64,000 nucleotides of DNA from an uncultured Gammaproteobacteria bacterium (lineage in GTDB: Bacteria > Pseudomonadota > Gammaproteobacteria > Ga0077536), in NCBI GenBank assembly GCA_964642505.1, contig CAZXQY010000003.1, positions 324 to 64,323 of the forward strand, written 5' to 3'. Every line of letters begins with the position of its first letter. Within the stretch, counting starts at the first letter, position 1. The notes under the pieces were generated by a model. The model saw only the letters and a list, made by a program, of their open reading frames with translations. It was not told the DNA's origin and did not search any database. Of this stretch, positions 7,958 to 45,505 are shown one piece after another. A program made the position numbers and the translations under genes.

Positions 7958-8069
7958 CTACTTTCCTCTTTTTTAAACCGAAAATCTCATTCAACGTTCA
8001 CTAATCACCTCGCTTGAATCAAATTTTGCATTTTACAAATATTTAATCTGTATATATTCACTAACCCAA

Positions 8070-42784: not shown

Positions 42785-43108
42785 TTAAAGGACAACGTCC
42801 TTTATTGCTTTCATAGCAGTCGCCCTAACCGATAGACTAGCGGGCCTAGCTTCTACATCGACCATTTCACCGGTAAACGGATTCCTTGCTTTACCTGCTG
42901 GCCTGGCTGGCTTATCGACTCGTCTCAGTTTCACACCTATCTCAGGGACTGTGAACTCGCCTGATCCATTATTTATCAAGTGACCTGCGGCAAGTCCTTT
43001 AACAGCCAGTAGTACCGCTTGAACGTACTTTTTAATCAGGTTGACTTCGTCTGCTACCGCAGAAATAATTTGAGACTTGGTTTGTTTCTGTGTTATCGCG
43101 CTGCTCAT
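42785..43108 (-). CDS. HU/IHF-family nucleoid-associated DNA-binding protein with an N-terminal extension
   Basis: The segment GEFTVPEIGVKLRRVDKPARPAGKARNPFTGEMVDVEARP corresponds to the HU β-arm RNPxTGE motif. Confidence 0.75.
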   Translation of the reverse strand: MSSAITQKQTKSQIISAVADEVNLIKKYVQAVLLAVKGLAAGHLINNGSGEFTVPEIGVKLRRVDKPARPAGKARNPFTGEMVDVEARPASLSVRATAMKAIKDVVL

Positions 43109-43476
43109 ATTTCCTCCCATGGCAGTGGCACTATATACTTAGGAATTGACCTATCTTAATCAAAAACAACTGGAGGTCTACTCGGATCGCTTTTCATAGA
43201 CCTGAGCGCCTTCGGCAAAAATCCGAGTCGCCTATTACAATGTCTCAATTCCCGATTCTTCTTGTAAAATGCTATCTCTTTAACAGAACTCGATTCAAGT
43301 TAAAAATCCAGCATTTGTTATTTAGCTCGATCTTCCCTAGATTAGCCCTTAGGTTTTGATCGTTGCTTCACTTTGTCCGGCGCCCACAAGTTTAATCTTA
43401 ATTCGTCCGGCAAATCAATCCATAAGGGAAAAAAAGCCATAATTTATGGATAAAACACTTCTATCCCGCGGAACTT

Positions 43477-43893
43477 TCAGGTACTTTCCTTGACGGCAGG
43501 CGCTAATTCCTCAGTTACATTACCTTTATCTACTTGCTTATGTTCAAGTTCACCTTCGAACACTGCCCCCGGTTCTAACTTAAGAAGCGAGTACGCAAGC
43601 CTACCTTTTACGCTAGCAGTGCTGCCTATTTCTAGCTGATGGAGCGCTAGTATGTCTCCCTCAACGGTGCCATAGATTAGAACATAATCGCCCTTTACTT
43701 GCCCCTTTACACTGCCCGTCTCTCCGATCTCAACAACAGCCTTTCCCGTAGCAATAATATCCCCTTCTACTTGTCCCGCAACGAAAACATTATTATCACA
43801 CCTCAGATTGCCTTGGAAAATCGTCCCAAACCCCACTATCGATGTGTCTTTTGATAACTTTTTGAGAGTATTTTTGTAGCGATTTAGAATCAT
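43477..43893 (-). CDS. Bactofilin (DUF583) cytoskeletal protein
   Basis: Repetitive β-helical G/V-rich core (VFVAGQVEGDIIATGKAVVEIGETGSVKGQVKGD...). Confidence 0.8.
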   Translation of the reverse strand: MILNRYKNTLKKLSKDTSIVGFGTIFQGNLRCDNNVFVAGQVEGDIIATGKAVVEIGETGSVKGQVKGDYVLIYGTVEGDILALHQLEIGSTASVKGRLAYSLLKLEPGAVFEGELEHKQVDKGNVTEELAPAVKEST

Positions 43894-43907
43894 TTCACCC
43901 CCCACTC

Positions 43908-44816
43908 TTAAATTTGCCGTAGACTACTTGGTCTAATCGAGGTAAGGCCATCGTCATTAATTATTTTGACCACCCATCCACCAAATTCTTTTGTCGTCTG
44001 CATTAATTTAACGACATTATGGTCACTTATCCCGTAACTAAAAGTACTTCTAAAGACCTTTGAATAAAATATAGGTTGCCCTAAGTAACAGGGAAACTCT
44101 TTAAGAGTTCGGTATATTTGTAAGATTTCGCTCCTGTCATCCAATAAATTAGGGATCACCACCACTGTTGGCAGAAATTCAATCTTTCCACCACTGTTTA
44201 TTTGCGGATTTGGATCAAATAACCTCGATAGAAATTTTTTAGTCGCCGTCAAATCAGCATCCGACGCAGACGTTGGAACGAAGAGATAATTAGCATCTAA
44301 CATGAAAGAATACTCAGCAGGAGTGGTACCAGCCGGAGTATCAAAGAAAACGAAACGACGTTCGCTTTCAGAGGACCGCACATAATCAGTCCTCAAATGT
44401 TGGTAAATTCTAGCATTATTTGGTCCACCCGAAGCCAGTATAAATTCGGGATCCGACACCAAACTAAACTTAGCGTTAACAAATCTGTGCAAAGACTCGC
44501 TAGTTGTAGCCTGTCTATCTAGATCAATAAATTCTATCCGGGAATCAGGTTCTTCGATCGCAAGATTTAGACATGTCATGAACGCAACGGTACTCTTCCC
44601 AACTCCTCCCTTGGAATTAGCAAAAACCACCGAGGTCGCGCCTTTTAACTCATGGCGCCGAAGCTCCTCGCTCCCAACAGAGCCTTGTTCTTCACCGCTT
44701 CCAGATCCGCCACCCGGCTGAACTGGAATCTCGGATACCTCCCTGGTAGCCAGAGAATCAGCGCCGCCCTTACTCTCATTTTGCCGCCCTAACTGTTTAA
44801 GAAATCTATCTAGCAC
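43908..44816 (-). CDS. ParA/MinD-family P-loop ATPase with a Gly/Ser-rich N-terminal extension
   Basis: Deviant Walker A NSKGGVGKST, IDLDRQ, and Walker B VFFDTPAG. Confidence 0.8.
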   Translation of the reverse strand: MLDRFLKQLGRQNESKGGADSLATREVSEIPVQPGGGSGSGEEQGSVGSEELRRHELKGATSVVFANSKGGVGKSTVAFMTCLNLAIEEPDSRIEFIDLDRQATTSESLHRFVNAKFSLVSDPEFILASGGPNNARIYQHLRTDYVRSSESERRFVFFDTPAGTTPAEYSFMLDANYLFVPTSASDADLTATKKFLSRLFDPNPQINSGGKIEFLPTVVVIPNLLDDRSEILQIYRTLKEFPCYLGQPIFYSKVFRSTFSYGISDHNVVKLMQTTKEFGGWVVKIINDDGLTSIRPSSLRQI

Positions 44817-44851
44817 AGCTTTGAACCGGATATTCTGGCGCAGTAATGTCC

Positions 44852-45289
44852 CTATTTGTCACCGTCTGCAGGTTTAGGAGGGCCGCCAGTAGGTTTCATA
44901 TCTACCTTCTGAGCCAGGCGGTTGAGTCTGTCCTCGGAGCTCGCAGCTGATGGAGCATCCCAATCAGTGGATATTTCCCCAACAAGCTTGGCCCCTTCAT
45001 GTGCCTCTATCGAGCCATATGATATTTTTCCTCTAATTTTACCTGTAGACGCAACCGTCAGTTTGCCGGACAGATTTAGACTTTCGTCCACTACGCCCTC
45101 AATCCAAGCAGTCTCACCAGATATATCGCCCGAAACATTACCGCTCTTTCCAACAATGAGGTGCTTTACCTGCACTTTCCCGACCAGACGACCGTCTATC
45201 CTCGCAGTACCTTGTATCGCTAAGGAAGCACCTTCTAATTCCGTCGACTCCCCAACGAAAAACTCATAGTTTTTTTGCTCATCTTTCAT
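44852..45289 (-). CDS. Bactofilin (DUF583) cytoskeletal protein
   Basis: β-helical repeat core (IDGRLVGKVQVKHLIVGKSGNVSGDISGE...) and a Pro-rich C-terminal tail. Confidence 0.8.
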   Translation of the reverse strand: MKDEQKNYEFFVGESTELEGASLAIQGTARIDGRLVGKVQVKHLIVGKSGNVSGDISGETAWIEGVVDESLNLSGKLTVASTGKIRGKISYGSIEAHEGAKLVGEISTDWDAPSAASSEDRLNRLAQKVDMKPTGGPPKPADGDK

Positions 45290-45418: not shown

Positions 45419-45505
45419 CGGAGAGGGAGGGATTCGAACCCCCGGTCCGGTTACCCGGACAACTGATTTCGAGTCAGCCCCATTCGACCGCTCTGGCACC
45501 TCTCC
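45419..45505 (-). tRNA. tRNA-Ser (anticodon CGA)
   Basis: The reverse complement folds as a class II tRNA. Acceptor GGAGAGG, anticodon loop CUCGAAA, long variable arm GTCCGGGTAACCGGAC, T-loop GGTTCGAATCC. Close to E. coli serU. Confidence 0.85.

What the first reader, a model, noticed from the sequence alone, without database searches (positions are those of the whole stretch)
43477..45289. Operon with two bactofilins flanking an orphan ParA-like ATPase
Two DUF583 bactofilin genes (44852-45289 and 43477-43893) flank a ParA/MinD-type ATPase on one strand with gaps under 40 bp. The ATPase has the deviant Walker A KGGVGKST and a roughly 60-aa Gly/Ser/Glu-rich N-terminal extension. No parB or min partner is present, so this is not the chromosomal parAB or minCDE locus. 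In Myxococcus, bactofilins are known to scaffold ParA through adaptor proteins. Here a dedicated ParA-like positioning ATPase appears genetically hard-wired between two bactofilin paralogues. This suggests a self-contained scaffold-plus-motor positioning module whose cargo is unknown. Neighbours that might be cargo-related are the HU-like gene, phaC (PHA granules are known ParA-like cargo) and tRNA-Ser.
Basis: partly seen in the sequence, partly recalled or inferred. Interest (0 to 1): 0.7.

Follow-up and report, generated by a model that had tools for sequence, protein, structure and literature searches.

The report
Bactofilin operon with dedicated ParA-like ATPase
A marine gammaproteobacterium encodes a divergent ParA-type ATPase that, wherever it occurs, sits directly behind one special, very conserved bactofilin cytoskeleton gene, which points to an undescribed nucleotide-controlled bactofilin module whose cellular job is still unknown.

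Summary
On the minus strand lie bactofilin Bac1 (44852-45289), a ParA/MinD-fold ATPase (43908-44816, KGGVGKST, about 57-aa disordered N-extension) and bactofilin Bac2 (43477-43893), separated by gaps of 35 and 14 bp.

The ATPase belongs to a small, sharply bounded family: about 21 clusters at 50% identity among 1.84 billion representatives. It is not chromosomal ParA or MinD, and no parB or minCE lies nearby.

- **Forward synteny:** in 49 of 49 loci carrying this ATPase, across at least 10 unrelated neighbourhoods, a Bac1-type bactofilin lies immediately upstream on the same strand.
- **Control:** 0 of 50 loci with ordinary ParA-like genes carry a bactofilin.
- **Reverse test:** 3 of 3 Bac1-type queries are followed by the ATPase.

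The conserved core is therefore Bac1 followed by the ATPase. The second bactofilin is facultative and moves: downstream here, upstream of Bac1 in another large clade, absent nearby in others. phaC, the HU-like gene, tRNA-Ser and the N-extension are lineage-specific, so they give no evidence about cargo.

Bac1 is under extreme purifying selection, lacks a membrane-targeting peptide, and carries a conserved C-tail motif (D-R-L) plus an acidic tail.

I infer that Bac1 is the ATPase's cognate partner and that ATP-dependent dimerisation controls the position or assembly of the bactofilin scaffold. No description of this module was found in the literature searched.

The parts
44852..45289 (-). Bac1: bactofilin with no membrane-targeting peptide, the obligate upstream partner of the ATPase (145 aa)
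   Evidence: Pfam PF04519 at 69.8 bits. The AF2 model is a beta-helix whose best PDB matches are Thermus bactofilin 6rib (target-normalised TM 0.78) and Caulobacter BacA 2n3d. A Bac1-type gene lies directly upstream of the ATPase in 49 of 49 loci. It is 88-93% identical between genomes whose neighbouring genes are 44-67% identical and whose synonymous sites are saturated.
44909..44935 (-). Bac1 C-tail motif, residues 119-127 (E-D-R-L-N-R-L-A-Q), followed by an acidic or Pro-rich tail. Candidate docking site for the ATPase.
   Evidence: R121 is invariant, and D120 and L122 nearly invariant, in the 21 sequences of A5. The same motif is visible in the 35 unique Bac1 sequences aligned from the loci. 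It is predicted as a short helix at 119-127 with low confidence. The docking role is an inference, by analogy with the BacP C-tail that binds PadC (PMC5703909).
43908..44816 (-). Divergent ParA/MinD-fold ATPase (302 aa, GTG start)
44589..44612 (-). Deviant Walker A K69-G-G-V-G-K74-S-T76, including the signature lysine K69
   Evidence: The sequence shows it directly. K69 and K74 are invariant in 21 of 21 diverse family members.
44781..44816 (-). N-terminal cationic amphipathic peptide MLDRFLKQLGRQ, specific to this lineage
   Evidence: Conserved as ML(D/G)(R/K)F(L/F)(K/R) in the window's clade and in P0014 only. Hydrophobic moment 0.68-0.85 and charge +2 to +5. AF2 predicts a helix at 2-11. Binding to membrane or bactofilin is an inference.
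44646..44780 (-). Disordered Gly/Ser/Glu-rich linker of the ATPase (residues 13-57)
   Evidence: pLDDT is below 50 for residues 9-57. Sequence and length vary among relatives. Absent from most of the family.
43477..43893 (-). Bac2: second, more canonical bactofilin (138 aa from the ATG; an alternative GTG lies at 43905). Facultative member of the module.
   Evidence: Pfam PF04519 at 82.9 bits. It is only 21-29% identical to Bac1. It is 36% identical (E 1e-18) to the bactofilin that lies upstream of Bac1 in the other arrangement, and that protein shows no significant similarity to Bac1.

Best explanation
This is a chromosomal cytoskeletal module of two or three genes. Its core is a cognate pair. 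One partner is a distinct clade of bactofilin (Bac1) that has no N-terminal membrane-targeting peptide and carries a conserved C-terminal D-R-L motif plus an acidic tail. The other is a dedicated, divergent ParA/MinD-type ATPase encoded directly downstream. A second, more canonical bactofilin (Bac2) probably co-assembles with Bac1.

Proposed mechanism, by the general rules of the ParA/MinD family:
1. The ATPase binds ATP and forms a sandwich dimer.
2. The dimer engages a surface, most likely the nucleoid. In the window's clade an N-terminal amphipathic peptide may add membrane contact.
3. The dimer contacts the Bac1 polymer through the Bac1 C-tail.
4. That contact stimulates hydrolysis and release.

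The result would be ATP-dependent control of where, how many or how large the bactofilin assemblies are. The bactofilin scaffold itself, with whatever it recruits, would be the positioned object.

**Shown:** the gene linkage, the family distinctness, intact catalytic motifs, the two folds, and strong purifying selection on Bac1.
**Inferred:** dimerisation, the surface used, the tail contact, and the direction of control.
For: **Linkage**
- 49 of 49 loci carrying the family ATPase have a Bac1-type bactofilin immediately upstream on the same strand. These loci fall into 13 flanking-gene clusters, at least 10 of them clearly unrelated.
- 0 of 50 loci with ordinary ParA-like genes have any bactofilin in the stored flanks. 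By my count from the coordinates, 37 of these hold at least 500 bp upstream.
- Starting instead from Bac1-type proteins, 3 of 3 look-ups (10 loci, one new neighbourhood) show the ATPase directly downstream. P0014 adds a further context.
- The trio survives a change of gene order: Bac1-ATPase-Bac2 here, Bac2-like-Bac1-ATPase in about 24 loci.
- No other gene is conserved with the pair.

**ATPase competence and distinctness**
- The signature Lys, Walker A, Walker A' and Walker B are invariant.
- The fold is ParA/MinD.
- Profile scores drop sharply from 171 to 74 bits. Only 21 representatives reach E 1e-30 among 1.84 billion.

**Bac1 properties**
- 88-93% amino-acid identity against 44-67% for neighbouring genes, at saturated synonymous divergence.
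- Conserved tail motif.
- pI 4.1-5.2 with an acidic tail.
- Bac1 and ATPase divergences correlate at r = 0.88.

**Framework from the literature**
- The gene next to a ParA/MinD ATPase normally encodes its activating partner (PMC11407121; PMC10241942).
- A bactofilin C-tail is a proven docking site in Myxococcus (PMC5703909).
Against: - No physical interaction has been tested.
- ParA partners usually act through an N-terminal peptide (PMC11407121). The conserved Bac1 motif is C-terminal, and the Bac1 N-terminus is short, acidic and variable.
- The surface the ATPase uses is unknown. Net charge of the ATPase core runs from -6 to +10 across the family.
- In an HMMER alignment to Vibrio ParA2, the conserved FR[RK]AF segment aligns with ParA2's IPRSRAFE. 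From my own recollection that segment includes the Soj R189 DNA-binding arginine. That position is Ser in the window's own protein.
- In Myxococcus, bactofilins did not bind ParA directly.
- The r = 0.88 correlation is confounded by shared phylogeny.
- The family is known only from metagenomes and MAGs, so no phenotype is available.
Confidence: 0.55

Rival explanations
1. Scaffold-and-sink model, which is the first reader's reading and the analogue of BacNOP-PadC-ParA. The bactofilin polymer is a static landmark that stores or localises the ATPase. The ATPase in turn positions a third cargo encoded elsewhere, such as a protein cluster, an organelle or a chromosomal region.
For: There is precedent for bactofilin patches sequestering a ParA (PMC5703909). 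The pair has no third conserved neighbour, so any cargo would have to be encoded elsewhere. The linkage evidence fits this model as well as the best explanation.
Against: In characterised ParA/MinD systems the cargo adaptor is normally encoded next to the ATPase (PMC11407121 and PMC10241942). Here the only conserved neighbour is the bactofilin. phaC, the HU-like gene and tRNA-Ser are not conserved with the module. There is no PadC-like or ParB-like adaptor in any locus.
Confidence: 0.28
2. Assembly-regulator model, like MipZ or MinCD. The ATPase dimer does not move the scaffold. It locally inhibits or promotes bactofilin polymerisation, giving nucleotide control to an otherwise nucleotide-independent polymer.
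For: The strict one-to-one coupling with a single bactofilin clade and the extreme conservation of the Bac1 polymer surface fit a direct regulator. MipZ is among the weak sequence and structure matches.
Confidence: 0.15
3. An ordinary partition or division ATPase (chromosomal ParA, plasmid type Ib ParA or MinD) that merely happens to lie beside bactofilin genes.
Against: - The NF041546 score is 44 bits against a cut-off of 180.
- No parB, parG or minCE gene lies in any locus.
- No iteron-like repeats lie around the genes.
- The contexts are chromosomal and housekeeping in kind, for example bamA-skp-fabZ, ligA-zipA and ilvC.
- The 49 of 49 against 0 of 50 association excludes chance.
Confidence: 0.02
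4. The module positions PHA granules or acts with the HU-like protein, as the neighbouring genes in the window might suggest.
For: phaC lies upstream and the HU-like gene downstream in the window and in its syntenic relatives. The HU-like protein is also unusually conserved, at 85-92%.
Against: That whole neighbourhood is collinear in those relatives, so it counts as one observation. None of the other neighbourhoods carries phaC or HU next to the pair. The HU-like gene is 356 bp away, with its own promoter-like site and a conserved upstream block.
Confidence: 0.03

Closest known systems
Myxococcus xanthus BacNOP-PadC-ParA scaffold (Lin et al. 2017, PMC5703909)
   Same: Several bactofilin paralogues are encoded together and are functionally tied to a ParA-type ATPase. 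A bactofilin C-terminal tail serves as the docking site.
   Different: In Myxococcus the ATPase is the canonical chromosomal ParA, encoded elsewhere with ParB. Binding needs the ParB-like adaptor PadC, which is encoded in the bactofilin operon, and bactofilins do not bind ParA directly. Here there is no PadC-like gene. The ATPase is a separate, divergent family and lies inside the bactofilin operon.
Type Ib plasmid partition ATPases (TP228 ParA / ParF with ParG; NCBIfam NF041546)
   Different: Only 15% identity, and 44 bits against a cut-off of 180. No centromere-binding partner and no iterons. The partner gene is upstream and encodes a polymer-forming bactofilin. The contexts are chromosomal.
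Orphan ParA-like systems with a self-assembling partner: PomXYZ (Myxococcus) and McdAB (carboxysomes)
   Same: A dedicated ParA-like ATPase is encoded beside the protein or proteins that form or mark the positioned structure. The expected logic is an ATP-dimer on a surface with partner-stimulated release (framework: PMC11407121; the PomXYZ details are from my own knowledge).
   Different: The partner here is a bactofilin beta-helix polymer, not a coiled-coil or condensate-forming protein. Nucleoid binding and ATPase stimulation are untested.
MinCDE and MipZ
   Same: Same ATPase superfamily. They set the precedent for an ATPase that spatially regulates a cytoskeletal polymer (FtsZ).
SofG-BacP (Myxococcus)
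   Same: A nucleotide switch protein that works on a bactofilin patch to localise other proteins (from my own knowledge; cited within PMC9178275).
   Different: SofG is a Ras-like GTPase, not a ParA/MinD ATPase, and it is not part of a conserved gene pair with the bactofilin.

Membership tests
ParA/MinD (deviant Walker A) ATPase superfamily | Deviant Walker A KGGxxK[ST] with the signature lysine | tested here: met
   K69-GGVG-K74-S-T76. K69 and K74 are invariant in 21 of 21 diverse members.
ParA/MinD (deviant Walker A) ATPase superfamily | Walker A' / switch I aspartates and Walker B aspartate | tested here: met
   D98, D100 and D159 are invariant and Q102 nearly so (at least 90%), within D159-x-P-A-G.
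ParA/MinD (deviant Walker A) ATPase superfamily | ParA/MinD three-dimensional fold | tested here: met
ParA/MinD (deviant Walker A) ATPase superfamily | ATP-dependent sandwich dimer and partner-stimulated hydrolysis | not testable with these tools
   Needs biochemistry. Only the catalytic residues could be checked.
Chromosomal ParA (Soj) of ParABS | Adjacent parB, and a score above the curated family threshold | tested here: not met
   No ParB-domain gene lies in the window region or in any of the annotated loci. The best NCBIfam partition model scores 44 bits against a cut-off of 180.
Chromosomal ParA (Soj) of ParABS | Non-specific DNA binding through conserved C-terminal basic residues | tested here: inconclusive
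   The conserved FR[RK]AF segment aligns with IPRSRAFE of ParA2. The second basic residue is Ser in the window protein. Equivalence to Soj R189 rests on my own recollection, not on a test.
MinD | minC and minE neighbours, and a C-terminal amphipathic membrane-targeting helix | tested here: not met
   No such neighbours in any locus. The C-terminus is a conserved LFQ[LI] end whose last two residues are modelled as a short strand, not an amphipathic helix.
Bactofilin (PF04519 / DUF583) | Bactofilin domain above the Pfam gathering score | tested here: met
   Bac1 scores 69.8 bits and Bac2 82.9 bits against a cut-off of 27.9.
Bactofilin (PF04519 / DUF583) | Beta-helical core fold | tested here: met
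   The Bac1 model has 12 beta strands, with mean pLDDT of about 77-93 per ten-residue block over residues 11-110. Its best PDB hits are bactofilins 6rib, 2n3d and 6ria. Bac2 was not modelled.
Bactofilin (PF04519 / DUF583) | N-terminal membrane-targeting peptide (consensus MFSKKKK; F2 and K4/K7 critical; PMC12448750) | tested here: not met
   The Bac1 N-terminus MKDEQKNYEF (MAQNESDYEF in other clades) is acidic and has no hydrophobic residue at position 2. Bac2 (MILNRYKNTLKKLSK) is only loosely similar to the consensus. This feature is typical of bactofilins but is not required for membership.
Bactofilin (PF04519 / DUF583) | Nucleotide-independent polymerisation | not testable with these tools
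   Needs purified protein or expression.
BacNOP-PadC-ParA type scaffold | ParB-like adaptor (PadC) in the bactofilin operon that recruits the canonical ParA | tested here: not met
   No ParB/Srx-domain gene lies in any locus, and the ATPase is not canonical ParA.
Orphan ParA-like positioning system with an adjacent cognate partner (McdAB / PomXYZ logic) | Conserved adjacency of the ATPase and one partner gene across unrelated genomic contexts | tested here: met
   49 of 49 loci, 0 of 50 controls, 3 of 3 reverse look-ups.
Orphan ParA-like positioning system with an adjacent cognate partner (McdAB / PomXYZ logic) | The partner binds the ATPase and stimulates it, and the ATPase patterns on the nucleoid or membrane | not testable with these tools
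No experimental data exist.

The most novel reading that the evidence does not exclude
The bactofilin polymer itself, decorated with conserved acidic C-tails, is the surface on which this ParA-type ATPase cycles. That would make it a third kind of matrix beside the nucleoid and the membrane. It would also be the first nucleotide-driven controller of the bactofilin cytoskeleton, which is regarded as nucleotide-independent. The system would be widespread in abundant marine Gammaproteobacteria (Porticoccaceae, Ca. Azotimanducaceae and relatives).
Probability: 0.15. Interest if true: 0.85.

Novelty: new variant of a known kind. Interest (0 to 1): 0.62.

Why it matters
Bactofilins are viewed as static polymers that need no nucleotide, and their placement is poorly understood. 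ParA/MinD ATPases are the general positioning switches of bacteria, and each known one works with a cognate partner. A ParA-type ATPase whose only conserved partner is a bactofilin would link these two fields and add a new class of partner or cargo to the ParA/MinD repertoire. It would also give a concrete, testable handle on how bactofilin scaffolds are positioned or sized.

The module occurs in very abundant, partly genome-streamlined marine Gammaproteobacteria. One Bac1 variant is indexed in 559 blocks of the sequence collection, many from Tara Oceans samples. Bac1 is conserved to about the level of the neighbouring HU-like nucleoid protein. Both points suggest an important role in the cell.

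Tried and rejected
- **Complex prediction.** I built a paired alignment of Bac1, a linker and the ATPase (A4, 13 pairs) to mimic a multimer run.
- **AlphaFold database search.** The afdb50 library was not available.
- **N-extension tied to a downstream Bac2.** Rejected. P0014 has the extension, but its downstream gene is a convergent anmK.
- **tRNA-Ser as part of the module.** Rejected. It is absent from 14 related loci, including the closest syntenic ones.
- **Centromere-like iterons around the genes.** None found.
- **Known RNA families in the window.** Only four tRNAs.
- **Anti-phage defence system.** No meaningful PADLOC hit; the best is E 0.0018 at 15 bits.
- **Promoter and terminator scan.** Uninformative: 9 promoter-like sites against 4.6 expected, and no clear terminator after Bac2.
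- **Net charge of the ATPase core as a proxy for DNA binding.** Uninformative, ranging from -6 to +10.
- **Literature.** Six full-text searches and eight papers found no description of a bactofilin paired with a dedicated ParA-like ATPase. Subscription-only papers are not covered.
- **Not attempted.** Whether these genomes also carry canonical parAB, minCDE or mreB.
Full report
**1. The observation**

ORF listing shows three consecutive minus-strand ORFs: 44852-45289 (145 aa), 43908-44816 (302 aa, GTG start) and 43477-43905/43893 (142 or 138 aa). Pfam calls the outer two bactofilins, at 69.8 and 82.9 bits against a cut-off of 27.9. The middle one is only a weak AAA_31/MipZ/CbiA match at 28-33 bits. 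Its deviant Walker A KGGVGKST (residues 69-76) is the only such motif in the whole window. The gaps are 35 and 14 bp. About 57 residues precede the ATPase core; AlphaFold2 predicts residues 9-57 as disordered and residues 2-11 as a short helix. The deposited record is a MAG labelled 'Pseudomonadota bacterium', which annotates the three genes only as 'polymer-forming cytoskeletal protein' and 'ParA family protein'.

**2. What the ATPase is**

- The best NCBIfam model, NF041546 'ParA family partition ATPase', scores 44 bits against a cut-off of 180.
- The best PDB sequence hit has E 3.8e-5.
- A family profile reaches only 57 bits or less on solved ParA, MipZ and Soj proteins.

A word-indexed search of 5.8 billion proteins found 27 relatives. 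A profile search showed a sharp boundary, from 171 bits for the last member to 74 bits for the first small generic ParA. An exhaustive HMMER scan of 1.84 billion representatives found 21 at E 1e-30 or better. Across 21 diverse members the signature lysine, the P-loop lysine, both switch I aspartates and the Walker B aspartate are invariant. It therefore looks like an active ATPase and is neither chromosomal ParA nor MinD. No parB, parG, minC or minE gene occurs in the window region or in any related locus whose genes were annotated. There are no iteron-like repeats.

**3. The synteny test**

*Close relatives.* At 49-66% identity the same trio is present, but the whole neighbourhood is collinear (lpd-phaC-Bac1-ATPase-Bac2-HU-DAO), so these count as one observation.

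*More distant members.* At 28-41% identity the ATPase sits in unrelated contexts. In each, a bactofilin lies directly upstream on the same strand:
- after ilvC in a Porticoccaceae bacterium
- after dxr-rseP-bamA-skp-fabZ
- next to nnrS
- next to a DAO gene
- next to sdh5

*Metagenome scan.* A scan with the family alignment returned 80 loci. I scored all 99 sequence sets held at that point with HMMs of the ATPase family and of the bactofilins. All 49 loci with a family ATPase have a Bac1-type bactofilin immediately upstream; three of these bactofilins are cut by a contig end. None of the 50 loci with ordinary ParA-like genes (45-108 bits) has any bactofilin in the stored flanks. By my count from the coordinates, 37 of those hold at least 500 bp upstream. 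Clustering the flanking proteins gives 13 neighbourhood groups, at least 10 of them clearly unrelated.

*Reverse test.* The last protein search used Bac1 as the query. Three Bac1-type hits, chosen only for their long contigs, are all followed by the ATPase. One is in yet another context: PhyH-GFO-MFS.

Names attached to members are Porticoccaceae, Candidatus Azotimanducaceae, Pseudomonadales and Gammaproteobacteria TMED92. One Bac1 variant is indexed in 559 blocks of the collection, many from Tara Oceans samples.

**4. Anatomy of the module**

The conserved core is Bac1 followed by the ATPase. The second bactofilin moves:
- **Arrangement A**, Bac1-ATPase-Bac2: the window's clade, 9 loci.
- **Arrangement B**, Bac2-like-Bac1-ATPase: about 24 loci.
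- **Arrangement C**, Bac1-ATPase alone: the remainder.

The upstream bactofilin of arrangement B is 36% identical (E 1e-18) to the window's Bac2 and shows no significant similarity to Bac1. The same three gene types have thus stayed together through a change of gene order.

*Bac1.*
- Between genomes where 55-65% of identical-residue codons already differ, Bac1 is 88-93% identical, with the core domain essentially unchanged. The ATPase is 51-67% identical, Bac2 50-70%, phaC 44-54% and lpd 53-67%.
- Bac1 lacks the bactofilin membrane-targeting peptide. The consensus is MFSKKKK, with F2 and K4/K7 critical (PMC12448750). Bac1 starts MKDEQKNYEF here and MAQNESDYEF elsewhere.
- After the beta-helix comes TDW, a short variable spacer, a conserved (S/E)-D-R-L-x-x-(L/F) motif, then an acidic tail. 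R121 is invariant in the 21 sequences of A5.
- The motif is predicted as a short, low-confidence helix at 119-127.
- The Bac1 model matches solved bactofilins 6rib and 2n3d.
- Bac1 proteins have pI 4.1-5.2.

*The ATPase.*
- The N-extension is not a family feature. It occurs only in the window's clade and in P0014.
- It begins with a conserved cationic amphipathic peptide, ML(D/G)(R/K)F(L/F)(K/R), with hydrophobic moment 0.68-0.85 and charge +2 to +5.
- The extension is not tied to a downstream Bac2. The P0014 locus has Bac1 upstream and a convergent anmK downstream.
- Most ATPases end in (K/R)-L-F-Q-(L/I).
- ATPase starts in the window's clade are GTG or TTG.

Bac1 and ATPase divergences correlate at r = 0.88, with Bac1 changing about half as fast. 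Shared phylogeny confounds this figure.

**5. What is not part of it**

phaC and the HU-like gene accompany the module in one neighbourhood only. tRNA-Ser is missing even from the closest syntenic relatives. The window holds no known RNA family apart from four tRNAs, and PADLOC finds nothing meaningful.

**6. How it most likely works**

The 2024 review of the ParA/MinD family sets out the general rules (PMC11407121). ATP binding gives a sandwich dimer. The dimer binds a matrix, either the nucleoid or the membrane. A partner, usually encoded next door, binds the dimer and stimulates hydrolysis and release.

Here the only conserved neighbour is a polymer-forming bactofilin, so I take Bac1 to be the cognate partner. 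The Myxococcus work shows that a bactofilin C-tail can be a specific docking site: the BacP C-tail binds PadC with a KD of 340 nM (PMC5703909). This makes the conserved Bac1 tail motif the best candidate contact.

My best explanation (confidence 0.55) is that ATP-dependent cycling of this ATPase sets the position, number or size of a Bac1 or Bac1/Bac2 scaffold.

- **Shown:** linkage, distinctness of the family, intact catalytic motifs, both folds, purifying selection on Bac1.
- **Inferred:** dimerisation, which matrix is used, the tail contact, and who controls whom.

Points against this explanation:
- ParA partners usually act through N-terminal peptides.
- Myxococcus bactofilins do not bind ParA directly.
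- The matrix is undetermined.

Rivals:
- A scaffold-and-sink model in which a third cargo is encoded elsewhere (0.28).
- An assembly-regulator model like MipZ (0.15).
- Chance adjacency of an ordinary ParA or MinD (0.02).
- PHA granules or HU as cargo (0.03).

**7. Comparison with what is known, and novelty**

The closest system in concept is BacNOP-PadC-ParA. It uses the canonical ParA and needs a ParB-like adaptor, and neither is the case here. The closest relatives by fold and profile are type Ib plasmid ParA proteins, but the partner, the context and the scores all differ. PomXYZ and McdAB share the logic of an orphan ParA with an adjacent self-assembling partner, but the partner there is of a different kind.

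Six full-text searches and eight papers gave no description of a dedicated ParA-like ATPase paired with a bactofilin. These include the 2022 Walker-ATPase review, the 2023 ParA/MinD survey, the 2024 ParA/MinD review, and the 2024 and 2025 bactofilin papers. Neither the 2023 survey nor the 2024 review contains the word 'bactofilin'. Subscription-only literature was not covered.

I rate it a new variant of a known kind: a ParA/MinD system with a new class of partner. It is known only from uncultured genomes, and no mechanism has been tested, so I score interest at 0.62.

Noticed in passing
window 43383-43420 (-), in the 356-bp spacer between Bac2 and the HU-like gene: A block of about 38 nt, GATTGATTTGCCGGACGAATTAAGATTAAACTTGT, directly after a T-run. 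It is conserved in four genomes whose synonymous sites are saturated and is not in Rfam. It could be the promoter or operator of the HU-like gene, or a small RNA.
   Followed up: partly
window 42785-43120 (-): An atypical HU-like protein of 111 aa. Pfam Bac_DNA_binding scores only 35.6 bits and it falls well below the NCBIfam IHF-alpha cut-off. It is nevertheless 85-92% identical across the diverged relatives, as conserved as Bac1.
   Followed up: partly
L053:1431-2805 and L050:124-1150: A sister group of ParA-like ATPases scores about 107 bits on the family HMM, just below the family boundary. Its upstream, overlapping partner gene encodes a 211-aa coiled-coil protein with no Pfam match, in place of a bactofilin. 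This suggests that the upstream scaffold partner has been swapped during evolution.
   Followed up: partly
window 44814-44816; L001 and L003 near position 8001: The ATPase start codons in the window's clade are not ATG: GTG in the window and L001, TTG in L003. Both bactofilins start with ATG, and Bac2 has a strong GGGGGTG Shine-Dalgarno sequence. This may keep the ATPase substoichiometric.
   Followed up: no
window 45419-45505 (-): tRNA-Ser(CGA) lies between phaC and Bac1 only in the window's own lineage. The closest syntenic relatives (L003, L004, L009) have no tRNA there.
   Followed up: yes
L026:4925-5509 (-), L099-L105, and L109:1264-2211 (-): In two unrelated neighbourhoods the gene converging on the end of the ATPase is a peptidoglycan-turnover gene. 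One is an SLT_4 lytic transglycosylase (232 bits), followed by ligA and zipA. The other is AnmK (317 bits). This is a weak hint of a cell-wall connection, which is typical of bactofilins.
   Followed up: partly
L045:6842-7312 (-): A further bactofilin with a near-canonical membrane-targeting start (MFEKSKKS) lies 2 kb downstream of a Bac1-ATPase pair on the opposite strand. Some carriers therefore also have an ordinary membrane-binding bactofilin.
   Followed up: no
Bac1 cluster members and contigs: Bac1-type genes occur on contigs of 1.8-3.0 Mb, so these are fairly small genomes. One variant is indexed in 559 blocks of the collection. The carriers appear to be abundant marine Gammaproteobacteria, some of them genome-streamlined.
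   Followed up: no
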